NCBI GenBank assembly: GCA_016188425.1
Contig: JACPHX010000003.1
Coordinates: forward strand, 18,606 to 82,605
From: Candidatus Uhrbacteria bacterium
GTDB taxonomy: Bacteria; Patescibacteriota; Patescibacteriia; UBA9934; GWF2-40-263
Direction: 5' to 3'
Length of the DNA: 64,000 nt
The first letter of the stretch is position 1, and the number at the start of each line of letters is the position of its first letter. The notes below the pieces were generated by a model, which had not been told where the DNA came from, did not search any database, and worked only from the letters and a program-made list of their open reading frames with translations. This document shows, piece after piece, positions 8,201-38,942 of the stretch. A program made the position numbers and the translations under genes.

Positions 8201-8286
8201 GCGGACGTGGCGAAATGGTAGACGCACTAGCTTGAGGGGCTAGCGGGAGCAATCCCATGAGAGTTCGAGTCTCTCCGTCCGCACCA
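8201..8286 (+). tRNA. tRNA-Leu (anticodon GAG), with CCA encoded
   Basis: Cloverleaf read by hand: acceptor GCGGACG/CGTCCGC, D arm TGGCGAAATGGTAGACGC, anticodon stem CTAGC/GCTAG with loop TTGAGGG, long variable arm, T loop TTCGAGT, discriminator A then CCA. Confidence 0.8.
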
Positions 8287-14017: not shown

Positions 14018-14094
14018 GGACGCTTAGCTCAGCCGGTTAGAGCGACTCGTTTACACCGAGTAGGCCGCAGGTTCGAATCCTGCAGCGTCCACCA
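14018..14094 (+). tRNA. tRNA-Val (anticodon TAC), CCA encoded
   Basis: Acceptor GGACGCT/AGCGTCC, D arm GCTC-AGCCGGTTA-GAGC, anticodon stem ACTCG/CGAGT with loop TTTACAC, T loop TTCGAAT, discriminator A then CCA. Confidence 0.85.
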
Positions 14095-22370: not shown

Positions 22371-22574
22371 ATGGAAAACATCCCTATCAAAACGGCTCGC
22401 GGCAACTACATTCTCTTCAAATATCTCGTAAAAGAAGGGGCTCCGCTAGTAGAAATCAAAGACCGAAATAAGAAATTTTGGTATTATAAATTCGAGAACG
22501 GAGAGTTCAAAGTCGTAACCGTCACATCAAAGTCCCTCTTCGAGGAACTTCCCGAACTGCTTGAAAATGCATAG
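22371..22574 (+). CDS. Hypothetical phage protein
   Basis: 67-aa ORF in the operon. Confidence 0.35.
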   Translation: MENIPIKTARGNYILFKYLVKEGAPLVEIKDRNKKFWYYKFENGEFKVVTVTSKSLFEELPELLENA

Positions 22575-22670
22575 GCTCGGCCTATACTCAAGCAAATATC
22601 GGAACCCAGTCTTAAAGACCATTTGCCCGCAAAAACGGGCTTCGCATGGTCTTTTTTTAATTTTACCCCT

Positions 22671-23974: not shown

Positions 23975-24325
23975 ATGCAAGGCAAGAAAACTACAGCTCG
24001 GGACAAAAAACTCTTCCTTGCGGCGCTACAACGCCGCAAAGGGATTGTTACGCTTGCCTGCAAAGAAGTGAACATAAGCTCAATGACCTTTTACCGATGG
24101 CAAAAAGACGATCCTGATTTTTACCAGAAATCAGAGGAAATCCGATACATCGAAATCGGCATTATCGCCGAAGACAGGCTTGCGGAAGCCATCATCGTAA
24201 ACAAGGACATGAACATGGTGCGCTTCTATCTGCAAACCAGAAATCATAAATACATGATGAAGCAACAACTTCAGTTCGAAGACCCAACCATCGAGCTGGC
24301 CAAATTATTATCCAAAGACGAATGA
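23975..24325 (+). CDS. Terminase small subunit (putative)
   Basis: 116 aa with HTH-like ITLACKEVNISSMTFYRWQK, directly upstream of and overlapping TerL. Confidence 0.5.
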   Translation: MQGKKTTARDKKLFLAALQRRKGIVTLACKEVNISSMTFYRWQKDDPDFYQKSEEIRYIEIGIIAEDRLAEAIIVNKDMNMVRFYLQTRNHKYMMKQQLQFEDPTIELAKLLSKDE

Positions 24326-27137: not shown

Positions 27138-27342
27138 CCCGATACCGTATGAGCTACAACACCCATCCTAATCCTTACCAAAAGCACCTCACCTCCGAGG
27201 AAGTGCTGCAAAAGCGACTTGAAAACATAGATCGCAATTGGCTGAAGTACGCAAAGGTCGCGTTGATTTGCCATCTTCTGTTGCTAGTCTTTCTATTCAC
27301 GGTGATCGTGACGGTGCGTTTCGCATTCTTAATTTTTTAACT

Positions 27343-28113
27343 ATGGCCAACGAAAGTAAACTCATCAACATATACCGCCGAGCGACGCGCCAGCTCGAGA
27401 CGACTGTCAGGCGTGCCGATCCAAGGAAACCAATAATTCTGATTCGGAAAGTGATCATGGGAGACATCAACAAGATTGCTGCAGACCTTGAGCGCGAAAC
27501 AAAGAACTGGCTCGTTGTTGAAATTCCACAGGAATACAAAAAAGGCAGTCAACAAGCCGTGGACGACGCTGGGAAACTCGGACTTACATTCGACAAGACT
27601 GGCTTCGGACAAGTTCACAAAGAAGCCATTCAAGCTCTGACCGAAGACGCTTATCTCGACTTTGCATCTGGCATCGAGGGTGTGCGACGCGCTGGCCGAG
27701 GATTTGTGAGCGACATCGTAAAGAAGAAAATCAATGAACGTATCGTCTCAGGGCAACTCGAAGGCAAAGCTTTGGACAACGTGAAGCGCGAAGTAAAGCA
27801 ACTCGTCGAAGACACTGGATTCACCGCGCTGGTAGACCGAGGCGGAAAGCATTGGGCTATCGATAGTTACGCCGAAATGCTCGTGCGCACGCATGTGATC
27901 AAAGCCAACGGTGAAGGGACAAGAAATCGCTTATTGAGCAATCGGGTGGACTTGGTCGAGATCTCCACTCATGCCACAGCGTGCCCGATCTGCCAGCCCT
28001 ATGAGGGCAGAGTTTATAGCCTGACTGGGAAAAGTGAGGGGTACGATAAAGCGCCTGAATTGCCGATCCATCCGAACTGCAGACACAGCTATATGCCTTA
28101 TATAGAGGATTAA
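27343..28113 (+). CDS. Head morphogenesis protein (Mu F / SPP1 gp7-like minor capsid protein)
   Basis: C-terminal CPICQPYEGRVY...HPNCRHSYMPY is the characteristic Mu F-like motif. Confidence 0.7.
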   Translation: MANESKLINIYRRATRQLETTVRRADPRKPIILIRKVIMGDINKIAADLERETKNWLVVEIPQEYKKGSQQAVDDAGKLGLTFDKTGFGQVHKEAIQALTEDAYLDFASGIEGVRRAGRGFVSDIVKKKINERIVSGQLEGKALDNVKREVKQLVEDTGFTALVDRGGKHWAIDSYAEMLVRTHVIKANGEGTRNRLLSNRVDLVEISTHATACPICQPYEGRVYSLTGKSEGYDKAPELPIHPNCRHSYMPYIED

Positions 28114-28228
28114 CGGATTTCCACAGGCATAAGCCCCGAAATGGGGCTATTTTGGTCTTGAAAAATAATCTCAAAGTGGTACTATAATGATGACGCTGTC
28201 CTGCAAACACTTAATTACATGCAATATT

Positions 28229-28450
28229 ATGGCAGAGAATAAACAACCCGAAAAAACCATAGGGCAAAAAATCAAAGAATTGCGTAAAAAAAAGGATTTA
28301 ACGCAAGAGGGTTTGGCGCGCAAAGCTGATCTTCCGTATACCACTCTTGTTAAAATTGAAGGCGACGCGATTCAGAATCCTACGCTCGATACTATTACAA
28401 AAATAGCAGCGGGATTGGAAGTCTCTTTGGATGATTTAATAAACTCATAA
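28229..28450 (+). CDS. XRE-family HTH regulator, candidate controller (C-protein-like) of the downstream Type I R-M genes
   Basis: IGQKIKELRKKKDLTQEGLARKADLPYTTLVKIEGDAIQNPTLDTITKIAAGL is a textbook XRE HTH. Its stop lies 3 nt before the hsdM start. Confidence 0.7.
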   Translation: MAENKQPEKTIGQKIKELRKKKDLTQEGLARKADLPYTTLVKIEGDAIQNPTLDTITKIAAGLEVSLDDLINS

Positions 28451-28453
28451 TCT

Positions 28454-30718
28454 ATGGCAAAAGATTCAAACAATAAAACGGTCGAAACATTTGAAAAGCA
28501 ACTTTTTAAAGCTGCAGACAAACTACGCAAAAATATTGATGCTGCAGAATACAAGCACGTTGTGCTCGGCCTTGTTTTTCTTAAATATATTTCGGACTCC
28601 TTCGAAGAACTCTACAACAAATTGAAGGAAGGCAAGGGCGAATACGAAGGCGCTGACCCAGAGGATCAAGACGAGTACCGTGCTCAGAATGTTTTCTGGG
28701 TGCCACAAAATGCTCGATGGTCTTACCTCCATTCTCGTGCAAAGCTTCCAACGATAGGAACTGATCTCGATGAAGCAATGGAACTTATCGAGAAGGAGAA
28801 CCCAACCCTAAAGGGCATTTTGGCAAAGGTCTATGCAAAACCGAATCTTGATAAAGCTGCGCTTGGCGGACTGATTGACCTAATCAGCAATACTGCGCTT
28901 GGAAGTGAAGCTGCGAAGTCAAAAGATCTTCTCGGCCGAGTCTATGAATATTTCCTCGGTGAATTCGCTAATGCTGAAGGTAAAAAAGGCGGACAATTCT
29001 ATACACCGAAAGCAATTGTAAGACTGCTGGTTGAAATGATTGAACCATACAAAGGGCGTGTATATGACCCTTGCTGCGGATCAGGCGGGATGTTTGTTAT
29101 GAGCGAAAAATTCGTACTCGAACATTCTGGGCGTCTCGACGATGTATCTATTTACGGACAAGAAAGCAATCAAACCACATACAGATTGAGCCGTATGAAT
29201 ATGGCTATTCGCGGTATTGATGGTTCACAAATCAAATGGAACAGCGAGGGTTCATTTTTGAAAGATGCACATCCTGATTTGAAAGCAGATTATATTATTG
29301 CAAATCCTCCATTCAATCAGTCTGACTGGGGGCAAGAAATACTGCGAAACGATCCTCGTTGGCAATTCGGGCTTCCTCCTGCAAGTAATGCCAATTTTGG
29401 CTGGATGCAACACATGATTTACCACCTTGCTCCCCACGGAGTAATGGGTCTTGTTCTCGCAAACGGCTCGTTATCATCCAACTCCTCTGGGGAGGGTGAA
29501 ATTAGACAACGAATGATCGAGGCGGATTTAGTCGATTGCATAGTAAGTCTTCCTACTCAACTTTTCTATAATACTGGAATTTCGGCATGCTTATGGTTTA
29601 TATCTAGGAAACGCAGTGGCAATGGTGATCGTAAACGTACAGGAGAAATACTATTTATAGATGCGAGTGAAATGGGTCACATGATTGATAGCACCCATCG
29701 CGAATTTACTGACGCTGATGTTGCTAAGGTATCTAGTATTTATCATGAATGGAGAAAGGACGGAGGAAGTTATAGCGATGAAAAGGGATTGTGTAAATCA
29801 GGCTCAATTAAGGATATCGAAAAACATCACTTCGTGTTGACTCCAAGTCGATACGTTGGAGTGGCAGATGATCAGAATAGCAAGATACCCTTTGAGTTTC
29901 AAATTGAAAATCTGAATAAATTCGGCAAGGAGCAAGCTAGAATTGAATCAATATTAAATCAGGAAATAATTGAAAGTATTAAATATTTCTGCCCAAATTA
30001 CGATTGGGCGAATACCAATTTTTTGTCTACTGAAATCTTAGAACAAATTACACAGATGCTGTTCAAAGAATGGTTTCTCGAATTCAATTTTTTGGATGAT
30101 AACGGAAAACCTTATAAAAAAAGTGGTGGGGAGATGATAGAAAATGATTTCGGCCTGATTCCTAAAGGATGGAGTATTGGGAAAGTCGGAGAGATTATTG
30201 ATATTTTTGATTCACAAAGAATCCCGTTGTCTTCACGAGAAAGAACGAAGCGTAAAGGTGAATACCGCTATTACGGGGCAACGTCAATAATGGATTATGT
30301 GGACGACTATTTGTTTGAGGGAATCTATCTCCTTTTAGGAGAAGACGGATCGGTTATCGATGATAAAGGATATCCAATCTTGCAGTATGTTTGGGGGAAA
30401 TTTTGGGTCAACAATCACGCGCATGTTTTGCAAGGTAAGAATGGTTACAGTACAGAGATGCTTTATTTGCTTTTCAAAAACACGAGAGTGGCTGGCATTG
30501 TTAACGGCGCCGTGCAGTTAAAAATTAACCAAGGGAACTTACTAGGTTTGGAGATCGTTATTCCTGAGAGAAAAATCCTAGATACCTTTTGTGAAAAAAT
30601 TTCTCCAATTTTTAAGAAAATTAGGTTCATGCACGACCAACTAAAAAATCTTGCATCAATCAATAAAAATGAAGAGCCTCAGTACGTTGAAGGACAGAGT
30701 AAAACTAATATTTCATAA
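28454..30718 (+). CDS. hsdM: Type I restriction-modification HsdM (N6-adenine MTase) fused to an HsdS-like target-recognition domain
   Basis: HsdM N-domain (HVVLGLVFLKYISD), motif I DPCCGSGGMF, motif IV IIANPPFN. The C-terminal ~300 aa carry an HsdS TRD-like region (KGWSIGKVGEIIDIFDSQRIP...). Confidence 0.85.
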   Translation: MAKDSNNKTVETFEKQLFKAADKLRKNIDAAEYKHVVLGLVFLKYISDSFEELYNKLKEGKGEYEGADPEDQDEYRAQNVFWVPQNARWSYLHSRAKLPTIGTDLDEAMELIEKENPTLKGILAKVYAKPNLDKAALGGLIDLISNTALGSEAAKSKDLLGRVYEYFLGEFANAEGKKGGQFYTPKAIVRLLVEMIEPYKGRVYDPCCGSGGMFVMSEKFVLEHSGRLDDVSIYGQESNQTTYRLSRMNMAIRGIDGSQIKWNSEGSFLKDAHPDLKADYIIANPPFNQSDWGQEILRNDPRWQFGLPPASNANFGWMQHMIYHLAPHGVMGLVLANGSLSSNSSGEGEIRQRMIEADLVDCIVSLPTQLFYNTGISACLWFISRKRSGNGDRKRTGEILFIDASEMGHMIDSTHREFTDADVAKVSSIYHEWRKDGGSYSDEKGLCKSGSIKDIEKHHFVLTPSRYVGVADDQNSKIPFEFQIENLNKFGKEQARIESILNQEIIESIKYFCPNYDWANTNFLSTEILEQITQMLFKEWFLEFNFLDDNGKPYKKSGGEMIENDFGLIPKGWSIGKVGEIIDIFDSQRIPLSSRERTKRKGEYRYYGATSIMDYVDDYLFEGIYLLLGEDGSVIDDKGYPILQYVWGKFWVNNHAHVLQGKNGYSTEMLYLLFKNTRVAGIVNGAVQLKINQGNLLGLEIVIPERKILDTFCEKISPIFKKIRFMHDQLKNLASINKNEEPQYVEGQSKTNIS

Positions 30719-30726
30719 TAATTCTT

Positions 30727-31251
30727 ATGGCAGAAATTTTTCAAAGTATCATAAATTTTTTTAACCACCCTGTCTTCATTATTGTTGGAGGTGTCACTGT
30801 TACCTTGGGTTTTCTTGGAATTATCTACAAAATACTTTGCTGGACTTTCGGGATCACTCCTATCGTCATCAGATTAGGCATCGCTTTATGGAAAAGAAAG
30901 GTTGCTATTTTTGGATCAGCTGATGCATACGCAAGCCTAGAGGCAACCCTTACTGATTCTGGAATATTTAAAAAATCAATCCACATTACTTCTGATAATG
31001 TTGATAAAGCTAAGAGCGAAACGATCTTCCTAGTGGACTGGGAAACATTCGGCGACAAAATAGATCAGGTATTCACCGCTAGAACCAACCACCAAACGGC
31101 AATTGTTATTTTTGCAAAACCAGCAAGCATTCCGAACGATAAAATGGCCGACATAGCCAATCGTGCAAATACGGTTGTCGTAAATTTTAGAGGACGTCTT
31201 TTGAACGATATTCTGACCTCATTAATTACAACGAGTTATGAAAAGAACTGA
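30727..31251 (+). CDS. Hypothetical protein with an N-terminal TM segment
   Basis: VFIIVGGVTVTLGFLGIIYKILCWTFGITPIVIRLGIAL is hydrophobic. The gene overlaps the downstream NTase gene by 14 nt, suggesting one operon. Confidence 0.45.
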   Translation: MAEIFQSIINFFNHPVFIIVGGVTVTLGFLGIIYKILCWTFGITPIVIRLGIALWKRKVAIFGSADAYASLEATLTDSGIFKKSIHITSDNVDKAKSETIFLVDWETFGDKIDQVFTARTNHQTAIVIFAKPASIPNDKMADIANRANTVVVNFRGRLLNDILTSLITTSYEKN

Positions 31252-32560
31252 GTTTAATACAAAATTCCGCCAGCACACACGAGAAAAACTTTCTCCTACA
31301 CAAAGAGAGAAAGATTTTGTTAGCGCGCTGTATGCAGAATTACAAAAGGTGCTTGGTGTAAATAATTGTATTCAAATCGGTTCATATCCAAGATTCACTG
31401 CTCATACGCCGCTTCACGACCTAGATGTGTTGTATTTTGCTGGGCAGTACGACCCTCGCGGAGTAAATCCAACAAATATTCTCAGTGATTTGAAAAAAGC
31501 CATTGATAGAGACTTTGTTAACCCGACCAGTTACAACGTGAGTTCTTCTCTCCAAACGCATTCTGTCACAATGAGTTTTGCCTCTAGTGGTCAGGAAGTA
31601 TTTGCAATTGATATCGTCCCTGCATACATTTCTGAAACAAAAAATGAATTCGGAGACGATACTTATTGGGTTCCTGAAATAATGACAGTGGGACATTCGA
31701 AACGTAAATCAATGTACGAGCAGCACTTGAGGGATCATATGGCGATTGAATGGATCAAGTCTGATCCACGAGGCTATATTAAAGTCGCTCAGGAATTAAA
31801 CTCTCAAAATGACGATTTCCGAAAAGCCGTGAAATTCGTTAAGGCGTGGAAACATGGTTGCAAAAAAATAGACGATACTTTCAAACTGAAATCTTTTCAT
31901 GTTGAGCAGATAATTACACAATATTTTCAGCAAGATAGTAGTCTCGATCTGATAGGTGCAATCTTTAAATTCTTTTGTGATCTTGAATCAATTATTTCTC
32001 AACCTCAAATTCGCGATCGAGCAAATTCCACGAAATATATTGATGATTATTTGAATGAATTAAATCCCGAACAAAAACGTAAAATACTGGAAGCTCGAGA
32101 CTTCTTCATGAACAAACTCGAAAGGCACACGGAAGCCTCACCTATGCCGATACTACTCGTGGGCGGTTTTTATGAACGGAAGAGTGATTCTGAACAATTC
32201 CTATACGACCTTAGCATCCCCACTTTTATCGAGGATCAATACGATTTTGTCGTGGATGGTAAGGTTGAAAAAAAAGATGGATTTAGGGGTGGTTATTGGT
32301 TGAGTGAAAACCAAGACAAGGCTCCGACTGGATTAAAGATTTATTTCCAATTAAGAAAAGATAATACAGGCGCTCCACTCTGTAAGTGGAAGGTCAAAAA
32401 TCACGATAATTGTGAACAACCACGCGGAGAACTAAATGATCACAGAACGAGGAATCATCCTGAATCTACAGCCTACAAAGGTGAACATTATGTCGAATGC
32501 TATGCCATTAAAAATGGGGCATGCGTGGCACGACATAAACGCAGTGTAATAATCCATTAG
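31238..32560 (+). CDS. Pol-beta superfamily nucleotidyltransferase, cGAS/DncV/OAS-like candidate (CD-NTase-like)
   Basis: IGSYPRFTAHTPLHDLDV (GS-x11-DxD). Third acidic position EVFAIDIVPA. The helical-domain motif KAVKFVKAWKHG resembles the hhKhW of OAS/cGAS-like enzymes. Family assignment is tentative. Confidence 0.55.
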   Translation: MKRTEFNTKFRQHTREKLSPTQREKDFVSALYAELQKVLGVNNCIQIGSYPRFTAHTPLHDLDVLYFAGQYDPRGVNPTNILSDLKKAIDRDFVNPTSYNVSSSLQTHSVTMSFASSGQEVFAIDIVPAYISETKNEFGDDTYWVPEIMTVGHSKRKSMYEQHLRDHMAIEWIKSDPRGYIKVAQELNSQNDDFRKAVKFVKAWKHGCKKIDDTFKLKSFHVEQIITQYFQQDSSLDLIGAIFKFFCDLESIISQPQIRDRANSTKYIDDYLNELNPEQKRKILEARDFFMNKLERHTEASPMPILLVGGFYERKSDSEQFLYDLSIPTFIEDQYDFVVDGKVEKKDGFRGGYWLSENQDKAPTGLKIYFQLRKDNTGAPLCKWKVKNHDNCEQPRGELNDHRTRNHPESTAYKGEHYVECYAIKNGACVARHKRSVIIH

Positions 32561-32564
32561 TCTT

Positions 32565-34076
32565 ATGAAAACTTTACAAATCCCATCGCCAAATTCTGGA
32601 GGAATGACCTCTCTCTCAATTGAGAAGAGCTTAGTTGTTGTTGGAGCGAATGGATCTGGAAAAACACGATTTGGTTCTAAAATTGAACAATCAAATAACC
32701 CTTCAAAAAGAATTTCTGCACAAAGATATTTACAGCTCAACGAAACAGTTCAGAAACAGGACTTTGAGACGGCTTTCAACCAATTGAATAGTGGCTATAA
32801 GAATCAGTCACCCATTCAACCACAGAACGACTATCAGCAAGTACTGGTATCACTTTTTGCTCAGGAATCACGAAGAAACGAAGAGGTTGTGATGACTATT
32901 CAGCAAAAAGGAAGCGTCTCAAAGGAGAGCCTTGCAAAATCCATCAAAGAACAGGTGGTTGAAGTTTGGAACTTTGTTTTCCCATACCGAACATTAAAAT
33001 TAGAAAAAGATAGGATTCGTGCTGTTAGCGAGTCGGGCGAATTCTCTGGAGCCGAAATGAGCGATGGCGAAAAGGTTGGGTTATATTTAATTTCCCAGAC
33101 GCTTTTAGCAGAAAAAGATTGTTTACTTATCATCGATGAGCCTGAACTTCATTTGCACAAGGCTTTAATGGTGAGGCTTTGGAATAAACTTGAAGAATAT
33201 AGAAAAGACTGTGCCTTTGTTTATATAACCCACGATCTTGATTTTGCTGTTAGTAAACCATCAAGCAAATTGATCTGGATCAAGAGCTTTCAGAATTCAA
33301 CATGGAACTGGAATGAGTTAGAAGCCAATGGAATCATTCCAGAAAATCTTTATCTTGAAGTTCTTGGTAGTAGAAAATCAATACTGTTTGTAGAAGGAGA
33401 AAAAGGCTCATTGGATGCGCAGATTTACCAAGCATACTATGATAATTTCACAGTTATCCCAAGAGGGTCGTGCGAAAAAGTAATCGAATCGGTTAAGGGG
33501 CTGAGAGAGAATGCGGGCTTGCATGACAAGCAAGTTTTTGGATTAATCGATCGAGATTTCCGCTCCGAAGAACAGATTCAATCTCTACAAGCTGATAGCG
33601 TATTTAGCATTTCTCTTAACGAAATAGAGAATCTTTTTTTGCTACCAGAGGTAGTTCAGTTAGTCTGTGATCACCTTTCCAAATCAGACAAAAAAGAGGA
33701 GATATTCTCTCAGATTAGAGGACATTATGAGACCAATAAGGAGCAGATAAATTTTGCTGCATCGAAATTTTCTATTCAACGCATGTTGAATGAAAGATTT
33801 GGTTCAGTAAAAAACCAAGAACAGTACAACAGCTTCAAGGAAACTATTGTAACTGAAATGGACAAGCTATTGTCATCGGGAACGCTTCCAGAAAAAGATG
33901 CTGAAATAATTGAAATATTGAAGATATATCCTCACAAGGGGCTTGTAAGGCAGGTGCAAACAGTGATCGAACTCTCAAAAAATGGATTTACAAACCTCGT
34001 GCTAAGTTTTCTCTCCTCTGACAAGCGACAGAATCTTATCGAGATTTTGAAATCACATTTTCCAGAAATTAAATAA
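32565..34076 (+). CDS. OLD/PARIS-like protein: ABC-type ATPase fused to a TOPRIM/DUF4435-like nuclease domain
   Basis: Walker A GANGSGKTR, signature-like MSDGEK, Walker B LLIIDEPELHLH, H-loop YITHD. C-terminal ILFVEGEKGS (Glu), GLIDRDFR (DxD) and EIENLFLLPE are typical of OLD-family TOPRIM / DUF4435. Confidence 0.65.
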   Translation: MKTLQIPSPNSGGMTSLSIEKSLVVVGANGSGKTRFGSKIEQSNNPSKRISAQRYLQLNETVQKQDFETAFNQLNSGYKNQSPIQPQNDYQQVLVSLFAQESRRNEEVVMTIQQKGSVSKESLAKSIKEQVVEVWNFVFPYRTLKLEKDRIRAVSESGEFSGAEMSDGEKVGLYLISQTLLAEKDCLLIIDEPELHLHKALMVRLWNKLEEYRKDCAFVYITHDLDFAVSKPSSKLIWIKSFQNSTWNWNELEANGIIPENLYLEVLGSRKSILFVEGEKGSLDAQIYQAYYDNFTVIPRGSCEKVIESVKGLRENAGLHDKQVFGLIDRDFRSEEQIQSLQADSVFSISLNEIENLFLLPEVVQLVCDHLSKSDKKEEIFSQIRGHYETNKEQINFAASKFSIQRMLNERFGSVKNQEQYNSFKETIVTEMDKLLSSGTLPEKDAEIIEILKIYPHKGLVRQVQTVIELSKNGFTNLVLSFLSSDKRQNLIEILKSHFPEIK

Positions 34077-34083
34077 TAAATCT

Positions 34084-37000
34084 ATGACTCACATCTACGA
34101 ATCAGACGTCGAACTACTGGCTATAGAAACCCTAGAATCACTTGGGTACGGCTATCTTGCACCCGAAGTCCAAGAAGCAGAACGCCAAGGGCTTACTGAG
34201 GTAGTTTTGAAGGATCGGCTTATTAGCGCCATCGCCAAGATCAATCCGAAGGCAACAAACGATGCTCGTCAGCAAGCGCTCCGTGCCGTTTTGAATATGC
34301 CAAGCCAAAACCTCATTGATAACAATGAGGCGTTCCACCGCATGCTCACCGATGGCGTGGAGGTTGAGTCCTATGCAAACGGTGAAACAAAAGGCGACAA
34401 GATTTGGCTTGTTGATTTTGAGCACCCAGAAAACAATGAATTCCTCGTCTGTAGCCAGTTCACTGTAATGCATGACAATAACCATAAACGTCCAGACATC
34501 GTCCTGCTTGTGAACGGTTTGCCGCTCGTAGTTATCGAGCTCAAAAACCCTACGGACGAAAACGCTACGGTCAAAAAAGCTTTCACACAGCTACAAAACT
34601 ACAAGACGGCCGTGCCTCAACTGTTCAACTACAACGGCATTCTCGTGGCGTCTGATGGACTCGATGCAAAAGCAGGTTCACTGACTGCCTCCTTTTCCCG
34701 TTTCCTCGCGTGGAAAACCATTGATGGTGTCAAAGAAGATAAAGTTACCATTCCGCAAATGGAGACGTTGATCAATGGAATGCTCCGCCCAACCGTACTA
34801 CTTGACCTCATCAAACAATTTACGGTTTTTGAAAAAAGCAAAAAGGAAGATGCTGTCACGGGCTTAACCCAGATCGAAACTGTAAAGAAAATCGCTGCAT
34901 ATCACCAATATTACGCCGTTAATAAAGCGGTCGAATCCACTCAGGGAGCAGCCAGCGAAAAAGGAAGCCGAAAAGCTGGTGTGGTTTGGCATACGCAAGG
35001 ATCTGGAAAATCGTTATCGATGGTTTTTTACGCAGGCAAAATTGTTCTAACGTTGAAGAACCCCACAATCGTTGTTATTACCGACCGTAACGATCTCGAC
35101 GACCAGCTCTTTGATACTTTTGCGGGTTGCAAACAGCTTCTGCGTCAAGACCCAGTGCAAGCGGAAAACCGTGGACAACTCAAAGAATTACTCAAGACCT
35201 CTGGTGGCGGCATCATCTTTACCACCATTCAAAAGTTTTCACCTGAAGATGGGTCTACGGTGTTTGACATGCTCTCCGATCGCAAAAATATTGTAGTCAT
35301 CGCTGATGAGGCACATCGCAGTCAATATGGATTTGGAGCGAAGACGCACATTAAGGATGGTGAAGCGCACACGAAATACGGGTTTGCTAAATACCTACGT
35401 GATGCTCTTCCAAGTGCGTCCTTCATTGGATTTACTGGAACGCCAATCGAAAAAGAAGATGTTTCTACGCCTGCAGTATTTGGCCACTACATCGATGTAT
35501 ACGATATCGAGCAGGCCGTTGAAGACGGTGCAACTGTTCGAATTTACTATGAATCACGATTAGCGCGAGTTCACCTCAAAGAGGAAGAGGCAGCTAAACT
35601 CGATGCCGAAGTTGAAGCGCTCACTGAAGGCGAAGAATCTACATCAAAAGATAAGGCCATGGCTAAATGGACTCAGCTTGAGGCCATTGTTGGGCATAAA
35701 GATCGCCTGAAAATTATCGCCAAAGATATTGTTGATCACTTCAGCAAACGTCAGGAAGTCTTTGAGGGTAAAGGAATGATCGTGGCCATGAGTCGCCGCA
35801 TTGCTGTTGAATTGTACGAAGAGATTATCAAACTGAAACCTGAATGGCACAGTGACGACAAGAAAAAGGGTGTGATTAAAGTCGTCATGACTTCCAGTTC
35901 TAGCGACCCAGAAAACTGGCAGAAACATCACACCACCAAACAGGAACGCAAAGAACTTGGCGATCGAATCAAGAATCCAAATGATGAGCTTCAATTGGTG
36001 ATCGTTCGTGACATGTGGCTTACTGGCTTCGATGCGCCGTGTCTCCACACCATGTACATCGATAAAGCCATGGAGGGACACAACCTCATGCAGGCGATTG
36101 CCCGCGTGAATCGAGTATTTAAAGATAAACCTGGTGGTCTTATCGTAGACTACATCGGTATTGCCTCCGATCTTAAAACCGCGCTTGCTACCTACACCGA
36201 AAACGGTGGTCAGGGTGCACCAACTCTTGATCAAGCAGACGCCGTTGCAACCATGCTCGAAAAGTTCGAGGTCGTTACTCAAATGTTCGATGGCTTTGAA
36301 TATCGGCCATATTTTACGGCCAATACCAAAGCAAAAATGACAACCATTCTCGAGGCGCAAGAATTCGTGCTCGGTCTTGATGACGGCAAAAATCGTTTCA
36401 CCAAACAAGTAGGACTTCTCTCAAAAGCTTTTGCCCTTTCGGTGCCAGATGAAAGAGCCATGGAGATCAAGGATGACGTCGCATTCTTTCAGGCCGTAAA
36501 AGCACGCCTCACAAAGTTTGAACCGACCGATGGCGAACGGAGCGATGATGATATCGAGACAGCTATTCGCCAAATCGTGGACAAGGCTGTAGTGGCCGAG
36601 GGCATGGTTGATATCTTCGATGCTGCAGGTATTAAAAAACCTGACATCTCCATTCTCTCCGATGAGTTCATGGAAGAAATTAAGGGCATGGAACGTAAGA
36701 ACCTCGCGCTGGAACTCTTGAAAAAGATTCTTGGTGATGAAATCAAAAGCCGAGGAAAGAAAAACTTCATTCAGAGTAAGAAGCTTTCTGAGATGCTCGA
36801 GATGGCAATTAAGAAGTACCAAAACAACCTTCTTACTGCAGCGCAAGTTATTGATGAGCTTATTAAGCTGGCAAAAGATATCAAAGAATCTGATGCGAGA
36901 GGCAGCGGACTCGGACTCAACAGCGATGAAATTGCTTTCTACGATGCCTTGATGATCAATGGAAGCGCCATGGCCATTCTTGGCGATGACAAGTTGCGTG

Positions 37001-37200
37001 ATCTTGCTCGCATTCTTGTCGAAAAAGTAAGAGCAAATACTACGATCGACTGGACAATAAAGGAAAGCGTTCAGGCACGTCTTCGAGTTATTGTTAAGCG
37101 CATTCTTAATCAATACGGATATCCACCAGACAAGCAGAAACTCGCTACAGAAAACATCCTGAAACAAGCAGAGCTTCTTGCTGAAGACTGGGGTAACTAA
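34084..37200 (+). CDS. hsdR: Type I restriction enzyme R subunit HsdR
   Basis: 1038 aa with N-terminal nuclease domain, helicase motif I HTQGSGKS, DEAH box IVVIADEAHRSQ, later helicase motifs, and a C-terminal helical domain. Confidence 0.9.
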   Translation: MTHIYESDVELLAIETLESLGYGYLAPEVQEAERQGLTEVVLKDRLISAIAKINPKATNDARQQALRAVLNMPSQNLIDNNEAFHRMLTDGVEVESYANGETKGDKIWLVDFEHPENNEFLVCSQFTVMHDNNHKRPDIVLLVNGLPLVVIELKNPTDENATVKKAFTQLQNYKTAVPQLFNYNGILVASDGLDAKAGSLTASFSRFLAWKTIDGVKEDKVTIPQMETLINGMLRPTVLLDLIKQFTVFEKSKKEDAVTGLTQIETVKKIAAYHQYYAVNKAVESTQGAASEKGSRKAGVVWHTQGSGKSLSMVFYAGKIVLTLKNPTIVVITDRNDLDDQLFDTFAGCKQLLRQDPVQAENRGQLKELLKTSGGGIIFTTIQKFSPEDGSTVFDMLSDRKNIVVIADEAHRSQYGFGAKTHIKDGEAHTKYGFAKYLRDALPSASFIGFTGTPIEKEDVSTPAVFGHYIDVYDIEQAVEDGATVRIYYESRLARVHLKEEEAAKLDAEVEALTEGEESTSKDKAMAKWTQLEAIVGHKDRLKIIAKDIVDHFSKRQEVFEGKGMIVAMSRRIAVELYEEIIKLKPEWHSDDKKKGVIKVVMTSSSSDPENWQKHHTTKQERKELGDRIKNPNDELQLVIVRDMWLTGFDAPCLHTMYIDKAMEGHNLMQAIARVNRVFKDKPGGLIVDYIGIASDLKTALATYTENGGQGAPTLDQADAVATMLEKFEVVTQMFDGFEYRPYFTANTKAKMTTILEAQEFVLGLDDGKNRFTKQVGLLSKAFALSVPDERAMEIKDDVAFFQAVKARLTKFEPTDGERSDDDIETAIRQIVDKAVVAEGMVDIFDAAGIKKPDISILSDEFMEEIKGMERKNLALELLKKILGDEIKSRGKKNFIQSKKLSEMLEMAIKKYQNNLLTAAQVIDELIKLAKDIKESDARGSGLGLNSDEIAFYDALMINGSAMAILGDDKLRDLARILVEKVRANTTIDWTIKESVQARLRVIVKRILNQYGYPPDKQKLATENILKQAELLAEDWGN

Positions 37201-37207
37201 AATAACT

Positions 37208-37969
37208 ATGTCGGAATACTACACACCACAACGCACTCGAAATCTGTACGATCCAAAAGATACTGAGCCGTTCAAGCTCAGCCGCTCGAAGATCGACCTG
37301 TTTTTGAGCTGCCCTCGGTGTTTCTATTTCGACCGCAAACTTGGCGTAGGTCGCCCGCCTGGTTTTCCGTTTTCACTGAACAGTGCAGTGGATGCATTGC
37401 TAAAAAAGGAGTTCGACATTCACCGTAGCGCTGGGACTAAACACGCTTTGATCGAAAAATACGGAGTCGACGCACGCCCTATTCCCCACGAAGACTTGGC
37501 CAAGTGGCGCCATAACTTCACTGGCATTCAGTACGTCCACGAACCGACAAATCTTCTCATTTACGGTGCGATCGATGACCTTTGGCAGAACTCCAAGGGT
37601 GAATACATCGTCGTGGATTATAAAGCCACTGCAAAAGAGGGCGATATAACCGAACTCGATAAGGCTTGGCATGACGGCTACAAGCGCCAGATGGAAGTGT
37701 ACCAATGGCTGTTGCGGCGAAGAGGGCTCACGGTGTCTGATACAGGCTACTTCGTGTATTGCAACGGCAAGGCCGATCGTGTCGCCTTTGATGGCAAGCT
37801 GGAGTTTGATGTGACACTCATTCCCTACACGGGAAATGATAGCTGGGTAGAAAATGCCGTTATCGGTGCCCATAACTGCCTTAATGCCGACATTATTCCC
37901 GAAGCTGCGGAAGGCTGTGACTACTGCGCCTACGTGAACGCTATTAACCAACAAAACTATGGACGATGA
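37208..37969 (+). CDS. Cas4-like PD-(D/E)xK nuclease with terminal Cys motifs
   Basis: AIDDLW...GEYIVVDYKA is a D..E.K motif. N-terminal CPRCFYF and C-terminal GCDYCAY are Cys pairs typical of Cas4/DUF83 Fe-S nucleases. Confidence 0.6.
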   Translation: MSEYYTPQRTRNLYDPKDTEPFKLSRSKIDLFLSCPRCFYFDRKLGVGRPPGFPFSLNSAVDALLKKEFDIHRSAGTKHALIEKYGVDARPIPHEDLAKWRHNFTGIQYVHEPTNLLIYGAIDDLWQNSKGEYIVVDYKATAKEGDITELDKAWHDGYKRQMEVYQWLLRRRGLTVSDTGYFVYCNGKADRVAFDGKLEFDVTLIPYTGNDSWVENAVIGAHNCLNADIIPEAAEGCDYCAYVNAINQQNYGR

Positions 37970-38106
37970 AGAAATCCTTCAGATGGTAACCGACGGCGAA
38001 TTGGACTCCTCTCAAATCGAGGACTTCAAAGGACTGAGCGACGAAGTTCAAGAGCTCGTAACCAACGGCGATATCGACATCGATGAGGCTCTGGAACTCG
38101 AGTAGA
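37960..38106 (+). CDS. Small highly acidic hypothetical protein (48 aa)
   Basis: ATG overlaps the previous stop (ATGGACGATGA). Product is MDDEEILQMVTDGELDSSQIEDFKGLSDEVQELVTNGDIDIDEALELE. Below the ORF-track cutoff. Confidence 0.3.
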
Positions 38107-38127
38107 CTTTTTCCACAGCCAAACCCC

Positions 38128-38155
38128 TTGCATTGCCATACCGAATTGGTATAAT
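38128..38155 (+). promoter_or_regulatory. Near-consensus sigma70 promoter upstream of the late structural genes
   Basis: TTGCAT - 16 nt - TATAAT. Confidence 0.5.
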
Positions 38156-38178
38156 TGAATAGTAAGAAATAGTCTTAA

Positions 38179-38228
38179 AGACCAGTTTGTCCCCGCATGT
38201 CGCGCGGACACCGAACTGGTCTTTTTTC
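38179..38228 (+). terminator. Structured hairpin plus T-tract immediately downstream of the promoter (6S-like terminator, attenuator or small RNA)
   Basis: Perfect 9-bp outer stem agaccagtt/aactggtct enclosing an inner gtcc...ggac stem, followed by TTTTTT. It starts about 24 nt after the -10 element. Confidence 0.45.
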
Positions 38229-38276: not shown

Positions 38277-38942
38277 ATGACAACTCAAAACCCCGCCAAT
38301 GAGGACGGCGTAAAAACTCCTCCCGTCAACAATGAAGGTAAAGACGATAAAACACCTTCACCGTCTGGTCAGGACGATAAAAAGACCCCGTCAGGCGAAG
38401 ACGATAAAAAGCAGGAGCAAATGGTTCCCATGAGCCGTTTCCGCGAAGTCATCGACGAGAAAAACAAGTACAAGGACGAGATCGATAAACGCGATCAAGC
38501 AGAGGAAAAACGAAAGCGCAAAGAACTCGAAGAGCAAGGAAAGTACAAAGAAATTCTTGCCGAAAAGGACAAAGAGCTTGAGTCCGCTGGTAAAACCAAA
38601 GAGCAGCTGACCCAATACGAAGAAACGGTACAGGAAGTCTTGGCTCAGGAACTCGAAAAGATTCCCGAAGACAAGAAAACTCTCATTCCCGATGAGCTTT
38701 CCACGGTGGCGAAACTGAAATACATCGCCAAGAACCGCGCACTGCTCATGGGAGAGAAAAGCACGACAGGCGCTCCTATTCCGCCTAACAGCAAGAACCT
38801 CTCAGAGGTCGAAGCGAAGAAACAACGCTACGACGAACTCATGCAGAAACGCCAAAAGGGCGAATTCCTGTCTGAACCTGAACGCAGAGAGATCATGAAG
38901 CTGGGGCAAGAAATCGTGGCTCTGAAAAACCAGACCACTTAA
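38277..38942 (+). CDS. Scaffolding protein (putative)
   Basis: 221 aa, highly charged, Lys/Glu-rich and helical. Immediately precedes the major capsid gene. Confidence 0.5.
   Translation: MTTQNPANEDGVKTPPVNNEGKDDKTPSPSGQDDKKTPSGEDDKKQEQMVPMSRFREVIDEKNKYKDEIDKRDQAEEKRKRKELEEQGKYKEILAEKDKELESAGKTKEQLTQYEETVQEVLAQELEKIPEDKKTLIPDELSTVAKLKYIAKNRALLMGEKSTTGAPIPPNSKNLSEVEAKKQRYDELMQKRQKGEFLSEPERREIMKLGQEIVALKNQTT

What the first reader, a model, noticed from the sequence alone, without database searches (positions are those of the whole stretch)
28187..38106. AT-rich 10-kb defence moron inserted in the middle of the prophage structural module
A block between the head-morphogenesis gene (ends 28113) and the scaffold/capsid genes (from 38277) is visibly more AT-rich than the rest of the prophage. 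It encodes only defence-type functions: an XRE controller, an HsdM-HsdS fusion, the NTase/ATPase cassette, HsdR, a Cas4-like Fe-S nuclease and a tiny acidic protein. It ends with a consensus promoter plus terminator. A full Type I R-M system carried as a moron inside the late operon of a temperate phage is unusual and suggests a more recent horizontal acquisition.
Basis: partly seen in the sequence, partly recalled or inferred. Interest (0 to 1): 0.7.

Follow-up and report, generated by a model that had tools for sequence, protein, structure and literature searches.

The report
Swappable defence slot in CPR prophage
A prophage in a tiny-genome (CPR/Patescibacteria) bacterium carries a 10-kb stack of three anti-phage systems in a slot where related phages each hold different cargo; every part is a known kind, but this slot in this phage lineage appears to be undescribed.

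Summary
The block at 28.19-38.11 kb is real and sits between the MuF-like head gene and the scaffold gene of a ~42.6-kb integrated siphovirus-like prophage. The host is a Patescibacteria MAG that NCBI labels Candidatus Uhrbacteria.

Only 28.19-34.08 kb is clearly AT-rich (GC 0.38-0.40, GC3 z about -4). HsdR is intermediate, and the Cas4-like and acidic genes look like phage backbone.

- an XRE controller;
- an HsdM fused to half an HsdS;
- a Type I CBASS (1TM effector plus CD-NTase with AGS-C);
- a fused PARIS-like AriAB;
- HsdR.

So this is a Type I R-M with two abortive-infection systems embedded in it.

It is not a one-off insertion. About 12 related phages carry different low-GC cargo at the same junction: Type I, II or III R-M with second-line effectors, copper or metal resistance, and metabolic genes. 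Two relatives with identical MuF carry different cargo, and a distant relative has the site empty.

A conserved promoter on the left and a conserved promoter-plus-hairpin on the right belong to the phage backbone. The island is a mosaic whose breakpoints fall at gene boundaries.

Verdict: a new member of known kinds (phage defence hotspot, embedded defences). Interest is moderate.

The parts
27238..28113 (+). MuF/SPP1 gp7-like minor head protein; left anchor of the cargo slot
   Evidence: Pfam Phage_min_cap2, 2.2e-22. 54-94% identical in all related loci. Homology with relatives ends at its stop codon.
28132..28153 (+). Terminator-like hairpin plus T-run that ends the packaging and head-assembly transcription unit
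   Evidence: Terminator scan. Fold dG -11.7 kcal/mol, z only -1.5. A hairpin plus T-run sits at the same place in L018, L004 and L005.
28158..28188 (+). Cargo promoter (TTGAAA-16-TGgTACTAT), a phage backbone element that drives whatever cargo is present
   Evidence: Promoter scan. The motif TCTTGAAAAAWAM-N8-TGGTA is found after MuF in L021 (the exact copy of this island), L004, L005, L007, L012 and L018, whatever their cargo.
28229..28450 (+). XRE/HTH_3 controller (C-protein-like), 73 aa counted from the ATG at 28229
   Evidence: Pfam HTH_3, 8e-13; PADLOC Control_protein, 9e-12. The independent gene call in L021 gives 73 aa. Homologues (40-73% identity) precede Type I, II or III R-M in L001, L004, L005, L007, L012, L018, L022 and L025.
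28454..30718 (+). HsdM fused in frame to the C-terminal half of HsdS (central conserved region, one TRD, distal helix), 754 aa
   Evidence: Pfam HsdM_N, N6_Mtase and Methylase_S; PADLOC MTase_I 4.9e-208 and Specificity_I 2.6e-55. Residues 1-505 are 77-79% identical to stand-alone HsdM of L018 and L022. Residues 527-748 align to the second half of L022 HsdS. The same ORF appears in the independent assembly L021. Full-length fused relatives exist: P0241 (714 aa) and P0385 (717 aa). The DPCCGSGG and NPPF motifs are present in the sequence.
30727..31251 (+). CBASS 1TM effector: N-terminal membrane helix or helices plus a small cytosolic alpha/beta domain, 174 aa
   Evidence: PADLOC Effector '1TM' PDLC00664, 1.6e-75, full length; also a type III CRISPR-associated TM family, 1.6e-33. 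It always sits directly upstream of the NTase, overlapping it by 14 nt, in L004, L028, L029, L030 and L031.
31238..32560 (+). CD-NTase (SMODS core) with a C-terminal AGS-C sensor domain, 440 aa
   Evidence: PADLOC Cyclase PDLC00785, 1.5e-175; Pfam AGS_C 2.1e-15; SMODS 2.7e-4, below Pfam's cut-off. The AF2 model (pLDDT 90.9) matches CdnC, cGAS, CdnD and CdnB (Foldseek E down to 6.5e-11). G48, S49, D61, D63 and D125 are invariant in 38 homologues.
32565..34076 (+). Fused PARIS-like protein (AriA-type ABC ATPase plus AriB-type DUF4435 TOPRIM), 503 aa
34084..37200 (+). HsdR restriction/translocase subunit, 1038 aa
   Evidence: Pfam HSDR_N, SWI2_SNF2, T1R_D3-like and T1RH-like_C; PADLOC REase_I E = 0. 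75% identical to L018 HsdR and 78% to L022 HsdR. Intermediate GC of 0.46.
37208..37969 (+). Solo Cas4-like PD-(D/E)XK nuclease with Cys clusters, 253 aa; semi-conserved right-edge gene, role unknown
   Evidence: Pfam PDDEXK_1, 1e-13; PADLOC Cas4, 1e-9; PHROG 31195 of unknown function. 94% identical in L002, which has entirely different cargo, and has phage-like GC. PDDEXK_1 or DUF2779 genes recur at the 3' end of R-M islands in L005, L022, L023, L027 and L028.
37959..38105 (+). 48-aa very acidic ORF (18 Asp/Glu, 1 Lys); function unknown
   Evidence: Read directly from the sequence. Called as a gene in L021. 87% identical in L002. No significant family match.
38128..38227 (+). Backbone element: promoter-like TTGCAT-16-TATAAT, then the AGTCTTAAAGACCA...TGGTCTTTTTT hairpin plus T-run, upstream of the scaffold gene
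   Evidence: Conserved in L001, L002, L005, L016 and L018 with compensatory changes in 2 pairs. Fold dG -26.9 kcal/mol, z -5.85. No Rfam match.
22561..22658 (+). Second copy of the same promoter-plus-hairpin element (TTGAAA-16-TATACT, then AGTCTTAAAGACCA...TGGTCTTTTTTT), upstream of the ParB-MTase gene at the start of the packaging unit
   Evidence: Fold dG -19.1 kcal/mol, z -3.2. Two copies at equivalent positions in L001, L002, L005 and L018.
38277..38942 (+). Scaffold-like protein; right anchor of the slot
   Evidence: 77-97% identical in relatives and followed by the major capsid protein (PHROG major head protein).

Best explanation
The region is the current occupant of a variable cargo slot in a lineage of temperate siphovirus-like phages of CPR/Patescibacteria bacteria.

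The slot lies between two late transcription units. The first runs from ParB-MTase through terminase, portal and MuF and ends at a terminator. The second starts with its own promoter and leader hairpin in front of the scaffold gene. The phage backbone supplies a conserved promoter just after the MuF terminator, and this promoter reads into whatever cargo is present.

Here the cargo is a mosaic, three-layer anti-phage island.
1. A Type I R-M under a small XRE controller. An HsdM fused to a half HsdS should dimerise into an M2S-equivalent methylase, presumably with a symmetric bipartite target. HsdR should cut unmethylated incoming DNA.
2. A Type I CBASS embedded between hsdMS and hsdR. A CD-NTase with an AGS-C domain would make a nucleotide signal on infection, and this would activate a small membrane effector.
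3. A fused PARIS-like ABC-ATPase/TOPRIM protein, also embedded. By analogy with PARIS it would fire when a phage deploys an anti-restriction protein.

Shown here: the parts, their families, the intact motifs, the mosaic ancestry, the hotspot and the conserved borders. Inferred: expression in the lysogen, enzymatic activity, the triggers and protection of the lysogen against superinfection.
For: Prophage and host:
- Serine integrase, CI-like HTH, RecT, exonuclease, ParB-MTase, TerL, portal, MuF, major capsid protein, tape measure and endolysin.
- Flanks carry NusA, ArgRS and ValRS at GC 0.56.
- ValRS and the CD-NTase are 100% identical to NCBI proteins of 'Candidatus Uhrbacteria bacterium' on a 109-kb contig.

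Family assignments.

Hotspot:
- 12 distinct low-GC cargos at the MuF|scaffold junction.
- L004 and L006 have 100% identical MuF but different cargo.
- The site is empty in L034/L035.

Borders: sharp homology breakpoints at gene boundaries; conserved left promoter; conserved right promoter plus hairpin, also present before ParB-MTase.

Mosaic:
- XRE-HsdM and HsdR are shared with L018 and L022 at 73-79% aa.
- AriAB-HsdR is contiguous with L022.
- The CBASS pair is shared with L004 (54%) and L028 (66%).
- The Cas4-like and acidic genes are shared with L002 (94% and 87%).

Embedding: AriAB lies between hsdS and hsdR in 3 of 4 other contexts examined and after a Type II R-M in the fourth.

Literature: embedding of defences in Type I R-M (bioRxiv 10.1101/2024.01.29.577857); PARIS and PrrC as R-M guardians (PMC12707154).
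Against: - There are no expression, methylation or phenotype data.
- The promoters are only consensus matches; the promoter count in the region equals the shuffle expectation.
- The MuF terminator is weak (z -1.5).
- The M-S half fusion could be a crippled specificity subunit.
- The fused AriAB is only marginally similar in sequence to the characterised E. coli AriA (E 0.09) and shows no sequence match to AriB. In E. coli PARIS, AriB is released from AriA, which a covalent fusion cannot do in the same way.
- All relatives are metagenomic and several contigs are cut inside the cargo.
- L010's two-component genes could be host DNA rather than cargo.
Confidence: 0.8

Rival explanations
1. One reading: one recent horizontal acquisition of a single 10-kb AT-rich defence moron inserted into a late operon.
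For: - Low GC and GC3 over 28.19-34.08 kb.
- Close backbone relatives lack this cargo.
- MuF and scaffold are adjacent in L034/L035.
Against: - Composition is heterogeneous: HsdM part 0.42-0.44, S part and CBASS/PARIS 0.35-0.39, HsdR 0.46, Cas4-like 0.50.
- The segments have different nearest relatives.
- The site is occupied by other cargo in every close relative.
- The terminal promoter and terminator are backbone and mark a separate transcription unit.
Confidence: 0.1
2. The TM protein plus NTase pair is not an activating CBASS. It is instead a guard-type system such as Hailong, in which HalB constitutively makes oligo-dA that holds the HalA channel shut, or Panoptes-like decoy signalling.
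For: - The gene order (membrane protein first, NTase second) is the same as the HalA-HalB order described for Hailong (PMC13434031).
- No infection sensor is known for this cyclase family.
- The effector has no solved homologue.
Against: - Both proteins match PADLOC CBASS models over their full length (1.6e-75 and 1.5e-175).
- The nearest solved sequences and folds are CdnC, CdnD, cGAS and CdnB. No HalB appears at E <= 1 in the sequence search or in the top 50 Foldseek matches.
- The effector family is also linked to type III CRISPR signalling loci.
Confidence: 0.12
3. The Type I R-M is defective or serves mainly as an addiction module. The HsdM-half-HsdS fusion would be a deletion scar, with restriction lost or the system acting only to stabilise the prophage. 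On this reading the working defences are CBASS and the PARIS-like protein.
For: - Relative to L018 and L022, the window has lost the stand-alone hsdS first TRD and the gene between hsdM and hsdS (Ymh or PD-T7-4).
- The fusion junction coincides with the change in ancestry at about 29.87 kb.
Against: - The ORF is intact in two independent assemblies.
- All catalytic motifs of HsdM and HsdR are present.
- The S part keeps a TRD flanked by both conserved helices, as in half-HsdS proteins that act as dimers (established knowledge of Type I enzymes).
- Fused M-S proteins of 680-750 aa recur among database representatives.
Confidence: 0.2
4. The block is a host chromosomal defence island that merely abuts phage remnants. 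It would not be cargo of one intact prophage.
For: - A highly similar XRE-HsdM...AriAB-HsdR cassette sits in a non-phage neighbourhood in L022.
- No att repeats were found.
Against: - The gene order TerL-portal-MuF-[cargo]-scaffold-capsid is collinear in about 20 loci, including IMG/VR viral contigs.
- The flanks on both sides have the same phage-like GC and a complete set of phage modules.
- A serine integrase needs no long repeats.
Confidence: 0.03

Closest known systems
[quoted passage not shown] 2022, PMC9122126)
   Same: A fixed locus between conserved phage genes holds a different anti-phage system in each relative. Turnover is fast relative to the backbone. PARIS is among the cargos.
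   Different: - The host phylum differs (CPR/Patescibacteria), as does the phage type and position (between the MuF-like head gene and the scaffold gene).
- The cargo is much larger: 10 kb against about 3 kb. It includes a Type I R-M, which that paper reports as lacking from P2/P4 hotspots.
- The slot also takes metal-resistance and metabolic genes.
- The backbone supplies a conserved promoter on one side and a promoter plus leader hairpin on the other.
Defence systems embedded in Type I R-M, BREX or DISARM (Payne et al. 2024, bioRxiv 10.1101/2024.01.29.577857); PrrC in the EcoprrI locus (PMC12707154)
   Same: Second-line abortive-infection genes are nested between hsdM/S and hsdR. An ABC-ATPase-based effector is placed where it could respond to anti-restriction.
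   Different: - Two unrelated systems (CBASS and a fused PARIS-like protein) are embedded together.
- The whole composite rides on a phage.
- The inner genes differ between otherwise homologous frames: PD-T7-4 plus AriAB in L022, Ymh plus AAA_13/PDC-S06 in L018, and CBASS plus AriAB here.
PARIS (AriA/AriB) of E. coli B185 (PMC10802454, PMC9122126)
   Different: - It is a single polypeptide, so release of AriB from an AriA hexamer cannot work in the same way.
- Sequence similarity to the characterised proteins is marginal (E 0.09 to AriA).
- The trigger and the RNA target are unknown.
Type I CBASS with a transmembrane effector (family catalogued in PADLOC-DB; the attribution to Millman et al. 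2020 is from my own knowledge)
   Same: A two-gene cyclase plus TM effector with no Cap2/Cap3 or HORMA/TRIP13 genes. The cyclase has the cGAS/DncV-like fold and catalytic residues.
   Different: - The effector gene is upstream and translationally overlapped.
- The cyclase carries an AGS-C domain.
- The signal made and the activation cue are uncharacterised.
Liberibacter prophage P-JXGC-3 (KY661963.1), a phage record annotated with a Type I R-M
   Same: A temperate phage of a reduced-genome bacterium that carries hsdR (28% identity over 74% of the query).
   Different: - The phage and the R-M family are unrelated.
- No embedded CBASS or PARIS was seen in the annotated features under the match.
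- It was not examined further here.

Membership tests
Type I restriction-modification system | HsdM: N6-adenine methyltransferase with the HsdM_N domain and catalytic motifs | tested here: met
   Pfam N6_Mtase 1.1e-104 and HsdM_N 2.1e-24. DPCCGSGG and NPPF are present in the sequence.
Type I restriction-modification system | HsdS specificity subunit with two TRDs | tested here: inconclusive
   Only one TRD with its two flanking conserved helices is present, and it is fused to HsdM. This is compatible with half-HsdS dimers, and fused relatives exist. Activity is untested.
Type I restriction-modification system | HsdR: PD-(D/E)XK nuclease, SF2 translocase and C-terminal assembly domain | tested here: met
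   Pfam HSDR_N 5e-53, SWI2_SNF2 5e-82, T1R_D3-like and T1RH-like_C 4e-130. The D..ELK, GSGKS and DEAH motifs are present in the sequence.
Type I restriction-modification system | Methylation of a bipartite target and ATP-dependent cleavage of unmodified DNA | not testable with these tools
   Needs a methylome or biochemistry.
CBASS, type I | CD-NTase (cGAS/DncV-like fold, GS...DxD...D) | tested here: met
   PADLOC Cyclase 1.5e-175. The AF2 model matches CdnC, cGAS and CdnD. G48, S49, D61, D63 and D125 are invariant. The Pfam SMODS score of 21.6 is below the cut-off of 26.5.
CBASS, type I | Adjacent effector gene and no Cap2/Cap3 or HORMA/TRIP13 ancillary genes | tested here: met
   1TM effector PDLC00664, 1.6e-75, overlapping the cyclase by 14 nt. 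No ancillary genes in the block. The same pair occurs in L004, L028, L030 and L031.
CBASS, type I | Infection-triggered cyclic (oligo)nucleotide that activates the effector | not testable with these tools
   Needs enzymology or phage assays.
Hailong (HalA/HalB) | NTase homologous to HalB, and a channel protein homologous to HalA | tested here: not met
   No HalB chain at E <= 1 or in the top 50 Foldseek PDB matches. No HalA match for the TM protein at E <= 10. Only the gene order is alike.
PARIS | ABC ATPase (AAA_15/AAA_21) together with a DUF4435 TOPRIM, as two genes or one fusion (detection rule in PMC9122126) | tested here: met
   Pfam AAA_21 35.7 bits and DUF4435 52.4 bits, both above cut-off. 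PADLOC fused AriAB 4.6e-120.
PARIS | Structural correspondence to the characterised AriA and AriB | tested here: met
PARIS | Activation by an anti-restriction protein and tRNA cleavage | not testable with these tools
   Needs Ocr- or Stp-type trigger assays and RNA analysis.
Phage defence hotspot | Conserved flanking core genes with different content among related phages, enriched in defence genes | tested here: met
   12 distinct cargos, 8 of them R-M based, between MuF and scaffold. Identical MuF with different cargo. Empty site in L034/L035.
Moron (independent transcription unit added to a phage) | Own promoter and terminator, expressed from the prophage | tested here: inconclusive
   There is a conserved promoter-like site at the left border and a strong hairpin at the right. 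Both are backbone elements and no expression data exist.
C-protein-controlled R-M | Small HTH protein upstream of R-M genes that binds C-box operators at its own promoter | tested here: inconclusive
   The HTH_3 and Control_protein match and the position are met. No operator conserved across the upstream regions was evident by eye.
Cas4 (CRISPR adaptation) | Association with cas1/cas2 or a CRISPR array | tested here: not met
   No cas genes were recognised among the window proteins scanned against Pfam, PADLOC and PHROGs; no dedicated repeat or CRISPR-array search was run. Only the PDDEXK_1 fold and the Cys clusters are present, so this is a solo Cas4-like nuclease, as reported to be common in CPR (PMC5704561).

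The most novel reading that the evidence does not exclude
This phage lineage keeps a dedicated, promoter-equipped cargo slot that works like an expression platform. Cassettes (R-M frames, embedded abortive-infection modules, metal-resistance operons) would be swapped at gene-boundary breakpoints between phages and CPR chromosomes. The hosts involved are labelled as different CPR phyla (Uhrbacteria, Peregrinibacteria, Gracilibacteria).

If that is right, temperate phages would be a main vehicle of the pan-immune system in bacteria with genomes of about 1 Mb. The duplicated promoter-plus-hairpin element would be an antitermination-type late switch that insulates the cargo from the structural genes.
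Probability: 0.3. Interest if true: 0.65.

Novelty: new member of a known kind. Interest (0 to 1): 0.5.

Why it matters
CPR/Patescibacteria have genomes of about 1 Mb. They mostly lack CRISPR and are reported to have few defence systems per genome but a high density of them, much of it on prophages (PMC12259885).

A concrete, anchor-defined slot (MuF-like gene | scaffold gene) gives a simple handle for cataloguing what these phages carry into such cells. Here the cargo is about 23% of the prophage.

The locus also gives natural comparisons for how layered immunity is built. The same Type I R-M frame occurs with three different embedded second-line modules. A fused PARIS-like protein is repeatedly wedged between hsdS and hsdR. 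This bears on the open question of whether such guardians work with the R-M they sit in.

None of the parts is a new kind of system, so the value is comparative and ecological rather than mechanistic.

Tried and rejected
- Megablast of 22-44 kb against 50,697 phage records found nothing, so no cultured relative exists. Protein-level hits to MuF were all below 35% identity.
- A search for att direct repeats of 12 nt or more between the prophage ends found none. This is expected for a serine integrase, so the exact ends remain approximate (about 13.1 and 55.7 kb, from GC).
- Rfam with permissive thresholds over 27.8-38.6 kb gave no match.
- I tested whether the two borders are a long direct repeat. 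Only a 19-nt stretch aligns (score 21 against shuffles 15.6 +/- 2.3, maximum 30), so I rejected it as a significant repeat. The 10-mer TTCCACAGSC does occur exactly twice in the window, once at each border; I left this as an observation.
- Alternative genetic code (UGA = Gly) for the loci labelled Gracilibacteria: no in-frame TGA in the cargo ORFs, so rejected.
- Hailong reading of the TM/NTase pair: not supported.
- Exact-match look-up of the flanking ArgRS found nothing on record. The host label came from ValRS and the CD-NTase instead.

Full report
**Setting**

The window has host-like flanks at GC 0.55-0.58 and a central segment at 0.45-0.52, from about 13.1 to 55.7 kb. The central segment is a siphovirus-like temperate prophage. 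It encodes the following:
- a serine integrase (14037-15680, minus strand) and a CI-like HTH protein;
- RecT and an exonuclease;
- a ParB-methyltransferase fusion;
- large terminase (24322-25704), portal (25722-27137) and a MuF/SPP1 gp7-like minor head protein (27238-28113);
- a scaffold-like protein (38277-38942), major capsid protein (38968-40098) and tape measure (44195-46564);
- an amidase-SLH endolysin (54767-55492).

The flanks carry NusA, ArgRS, ValRS and an IS256 transposase. ValRS and the island's NTase are each 100% identical to NCBI proteins of 'Candidatus Uhrbacteria bacterium' (locus tag HYV73_00710 for the NTase) on a 109,272-bp contig. The named ValRS relatives are Uhrbacteria, Magasanikbacteria, Moranbacteria and other Patescibacteria, at 55-60% identity. 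The host is therefore a CPR/Patescibacteria bacterium (lineage).

**The observation**

Nucleotide homology to the closest backbone relatives stops at 28100-28113, the MuF stop codon. It resumes at 38110 (L001) or 37197 (L002).

The composition claim holds for only part of the block. Twenty-six prophage genes have GC 0.483 +/- 0.021 and GC3 0.586 +/- 0.054.
- HsdMS, the TM effector, the NTase and AriAB have GC 0.38-0.40 and GC3 0.34-0.37, with z between -3.8 and -4.9. XRE has GC 0.38 and GC3 0.39 but was too short for the z-score set.
- HsdR has GC 0.46 (z -1.1; GC3 z -2.2).
- The Cas4-like gene has GC 0.50 (z +0.7).
- Inside hsdMS, the HsdM part is 0.42-0.44 and the S part is 0.35-0.375.

**What the genes are**

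- 28229-28450 is a 73-aa HTH_3 protein that matches R-M control proteins.
- 28454-30718 is an HsdM fused to the second half of an HsdS (central conserved region, one TRD, distal helix).
  - Residues 1-505 are 77-79% identical to stand-alone HsdM proteins in L018 and L022.
  - Residues 527-748 align with the C-terminal half of the L022 HsdS.
  - The ORF is the same in an independent Logan assembly.
  - Fused relatives of 680-750 aa recur among database representatives, for example P0241, which matches residues 2-722.
- 30727-31251 matches the PADLOC '1TM' CBASS effector over its full length (1.6e-75).
- 31238-32560 matches a CBASS cyclase model over its full length (1.5e-175) and has a Pfam AGS-C domain.
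  - An AlphaFold model built on 38 homologues (pLDDT 90.9) is closest to CdnC, cGAS, CdnD and CdnB.
  - The catalytic G-S and three Asp residues are invariant.
- The effector and cyclase pair, always with the same 14-nt overlap, recurs in L004, L028, L029, L030 and L031. I considered Hailong because of the gene order, but neither sequence nor fold search finds HalB or HalA.
- 32565-34076 matches the PADLOC fused AriAB model (4.6e-120), Pfam AAA_21 and DUF4435.
  - Its sequence is remote from the characterised E. coli proteins.
- 34084-37200 is a complete HsdR.
- 37208-37969 is a solo Cas4-like PD-(D/E)XK protein.
- 37959-38105 is a 48-aa ORF with 18 acidic residues and no family match.

The 'NTase/ATPase cassette' is therefore a Type I CBASS plus a fused PARIS-like protein, both embedded between hsdMS and hsdR.

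**Relatives: a hotspot, not a one-off**

I used the MuF-like protein and the capsid protein as bait and retrieved about 30 loci from genomes, IMG/VR and metagenomes. Core proteins are 54-98% identical to the window's.

Wherever sequence downstream of MuF is available, it is a different low-GC block (0.27-0.46):

| Locus | Cargo between MuF and scaffold |
|---|---|
| L001 / L012 | PDC-S18 (DUF5655), XRE, Type III Mod/Res, a 1277-aa TPR-PIN protein |
| L002 | C5 methylase, BpuJI-like REase, second C5 methylase, 922-aa SMC-like ATPase, then the same Cas4-like and acidic genes as the window |
| L003 / L008 | CsoR-like repressor, CopA P-type ATPase, beta-propeller protein |
| L004 | XRE, HsdM, Ymh, HsdS, HsdR, then the 1TM effector and a CD-NTase 54% identical to the window's |
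| L005 | XRE, C5 methylase, HpaII-like REase, 1270-aa TPR-PIN protein (56% identical to that of L001), DUF2779 |
| L006 | C5 methylase, HinP1I-like REase, EVE, AAA_13 |
| L007 | XRE, methylase, AlwI-like REase, methylase, AAA_13 |
| L010 | a two-component system |
| L016 | oxidoreductase, glycosyltransferase, seryl-tRNA synthetase |
| L018 | XRE, HsdM, Ymh, HsdS, AAA_13/PDC-S06, HsdR |
| L033 | multicopper oxidase, ArsR, cation efflux |

Sources for the table.

L004 and L006 encode 100% identical MuF proteins yet carry different cargo. In the distant relatives L034/L035 (capsid 58%, MuF 27-31% identical), the MuF and scaffold genes are about 105 nt apart.

It also shows a standing, fast-turnover slot that accepts non-defence cargo as well.

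**Borders**

Left border. After the MuF stop there is a short hairpin plus T-run (28132-28153) and then TTGAAA-16-TGgTACTAT (28158-28188). The motif TCTTGAAAAAWAM-N8-TGGTA is present at the same place in L004, L005, L007, L012 and L018, whatever their cargo.

Right border. TTGCAT-16-TATAAT (38128-38155) is followed by a long hairpin plus T-run (38171-38227; dG -26.9 kcal/mol, z -5.85). It is conserved in all relatives examined, with compensatory changes in two pairs.

The same arrangement, with the same AGTCTTAAAGACCA...TGGTCTTTTTT arms, occurs once more in the window, at 22561-22658 just before the ParB-MTase gene. It also occurs at the equivalent position in L001, L002, L005 and L018.

My inference is that these mark the starts of two late transcription units whose leaders contain a terminator, which would be antitermination-type control. 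The cargo slot lies in the gap between the units, not inside an operon. That would explain why 5-10 kb of foreign DNA is tolerated there.

**Mosaic ancestry**

Relative to L018 (a phage from the other backbone clade), the window is collinear over 27597-29871 (MuF end, border, XRE, HsdM) and over 34066-37191 (HsdR). Everything between differs.

Relative to L022 (a non-phage neighbourhood in another metagenome), it is collinear over 28251-29764 and over 32563-37194 (AriAB plus HsdR). L022 has PD-T7-4 and a full HsdS where the window has the S fusion and CBASS.

Relative to L002, it is collinear from 37197 onward.

So there are at least four segments: [XRE-HsdM] | [half S, effector, cyclase] | [AriAB-HsdR] | [Cas4-like, acidic]. 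The joints fall at gene boundaries. The composition steps fall at the same joints.

'Recent acquisition' fits the inner, most AT-rich segment best. The R-M frame is about as diverged from its L018 counterpart (75-79% aa) as terminase and portal are (79-80%).

**Embedding is recurrent**

Homologues of the fused AriAB (55-89% identical) are abundant in CPR MAGs. I examined four other contexts. In three, the gene sits between hsdS and hsdR (L022, L023/L024, L027). In the fourth it follows an NgoPII-type R-M (L025/L026).

A PDDEXK_1 or DUF2779 gene often follows these islands. This fits the published note that solo Cas4 is common in CPR and lies next to R-M in DPANN archaea (PMC5704561).

**Comparison with what is known**

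- Phage and satellite hotspots are established. P2/P4 hotspots are reported to lack Type I R-M, and PARIS fusions are part of the PARIS definition (PMC9122126).
- Embedding of defence genes in Type I R-M, BREX and DISARM is established, with PrrC as the classic case and embedded PARIS discussed as a possibility (bioRxiv 10.1101/2024.01.29.577857; PMC12707154).
- CPR genomes are reported to have few defence systems per genome but a high density, with prophages as their main mobile elements (PMC12259885).
- HsdR homologues occur in only 15 of 50,697 phage records, six of them near full length. One is a Liberibacter prophage annotated with a Type I R-M.

The finding is therefore a new member of known kinds: a hotspot in a phage lineage and host group where I found none described, unusually large, and holding a composite of known systems.

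**Mechanism and confidence**

Shown: the parts, their intact motifs, the hotspot, the borders and the mosaic.

Inferred:
- transcription from the border promoter in the lysogen;
- dimerisation of the M-half-S fusion to give a symmetric target;
- restriction by HsdR;
- nucleotide signalling from the CD-NTase to the membrane effector;
- activation of the PARIS-like protein by anti-restriction factors.

I put 0.8 on the overall reading and much less on any single activity.

Noticed in passing
window 22561-22658 and 38128-38227; L001, L002, L005 and L018 at about 5.3 kb and just before the scaffold gene: A promoter-like site followed about 15-20 nt later by a hairpin plus T-run with conserved arms (AGTCTTAAAGACCA...TGGTCTTTTTT). 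It occurs twice per phage, before the ParB-MTase gene and before the scaffold gene. It looks like late-gene control of the promoter-plus-leader-terminator (antitermination) type. It has no Rfam match.
   Followed up: partly
window 28119-28128 and 38111-38120: The 10-mer TTCCACAGSC occurs exactly twice in 64 kb: 6 nt after the MuF stop and 6 nt after the acidic ORF stop, that is at both cargo borders. Similar motifs flank the cargo in L002, and one is at the right border in L001. The longer alignment of the two borders is not significant. It could be a recombination scar, a recombination site or chance.
   Followed up: partly
window flanks versus L001 (DBRL01000014.1), L002 (CP064978.1), L005 (OY760177.1), L003 and L004: Phages whose core proteins are 85-97% identical sit in genomes labelled as different CPR phyla: Uhrbacteria here, Peregrinibacteria for L001 and L002, Gracilibacteria for L005. 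Some are in bins labelled Francisellaceae or Woesearchaeota. This reflects either broad host range or transfer, or else loose MAG labels and binning. It could not be resolved here.
   Followed up: no
L004 (406-1188) versus L006 (632-1414): The MuF proteins are 100% identical but the cargos are entirely different: Type I R-M plus CBASS in L004, Type II R-M plus EVE plus AAA_13 in L006. This is direct evidence of very recent cargo replacement.
   Followed up: yes
L003 3348-7063, L008 5849-8412, L033 26-2766: The same slot can hold copper or metal resistance operons instead of defence genes: CsoR-like repressor plus CopA plus beta-propeller, or multicopper oxidase plus ArsR plus cation efflux. 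L016 holds an oxidoreductase, a glycosyltransferase and a seryl-tRNA synthetase.
   Followed up: partly
window 14018-14094: tRNA-Val (anticodon TAC) lies inside the low-GC prophage segment, next to and slightly overlapping the 3' end of the longest integrase ORF. It may be phage-borne or part of the attachment region. Phage tRNAs can counter tRNA-cleaving defences.
   Followed up: no
window 22672-23927: A ParB-like domain fused to a DNA methyltransferase is the first gene of the packaging unit (PHROG 498, 3e-145). It is probably an orphan methylase that protects phage DNA from host restriction, separate from the island's HsdM.
   Followed up: no
L021 (Logan SRR12113421, 10,298 bp): The only other exact copy of the island is a contig that starts in the last 80 codons of MuF and ends just past the acidic ORF, so the assembly breaks at both slot borders. 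This is expected if several cargo variants of the phage coexist in that sample.
   Followed up: no
L028 7645-11174: A second, short cyclase (260 aa, PADLOC Cyclase 1.4e-71) sits directly upstream of the 1TM effector plus AGS-C cyclase pair. It follows an XRE, SNF2 helicase, methylase and ResIII set and is followed by a Cas4-like gene. This is a two-cyclase variant of the same module.
   Followed up: no
L022 7142-7738; L018 12694-13518; L004 3281-3988: The gene between hsdM and hsdS also varies: PD-T7-4 (DUF4145) in L022 and Hypoth_Ymh proteins in L018 and L004. Homologous Type I frames therefore have two embedding positions.
   Followed up: partly
window 8201-9936 and 12395-13126: In the host flank there is a tRNA-Leu (GAG) followed by an IS256-family transposase. 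A DUF5131 (phage Gp37/Gp68-like) gene with host-like GC lies immediately left of the prophage.
   Followed up: no
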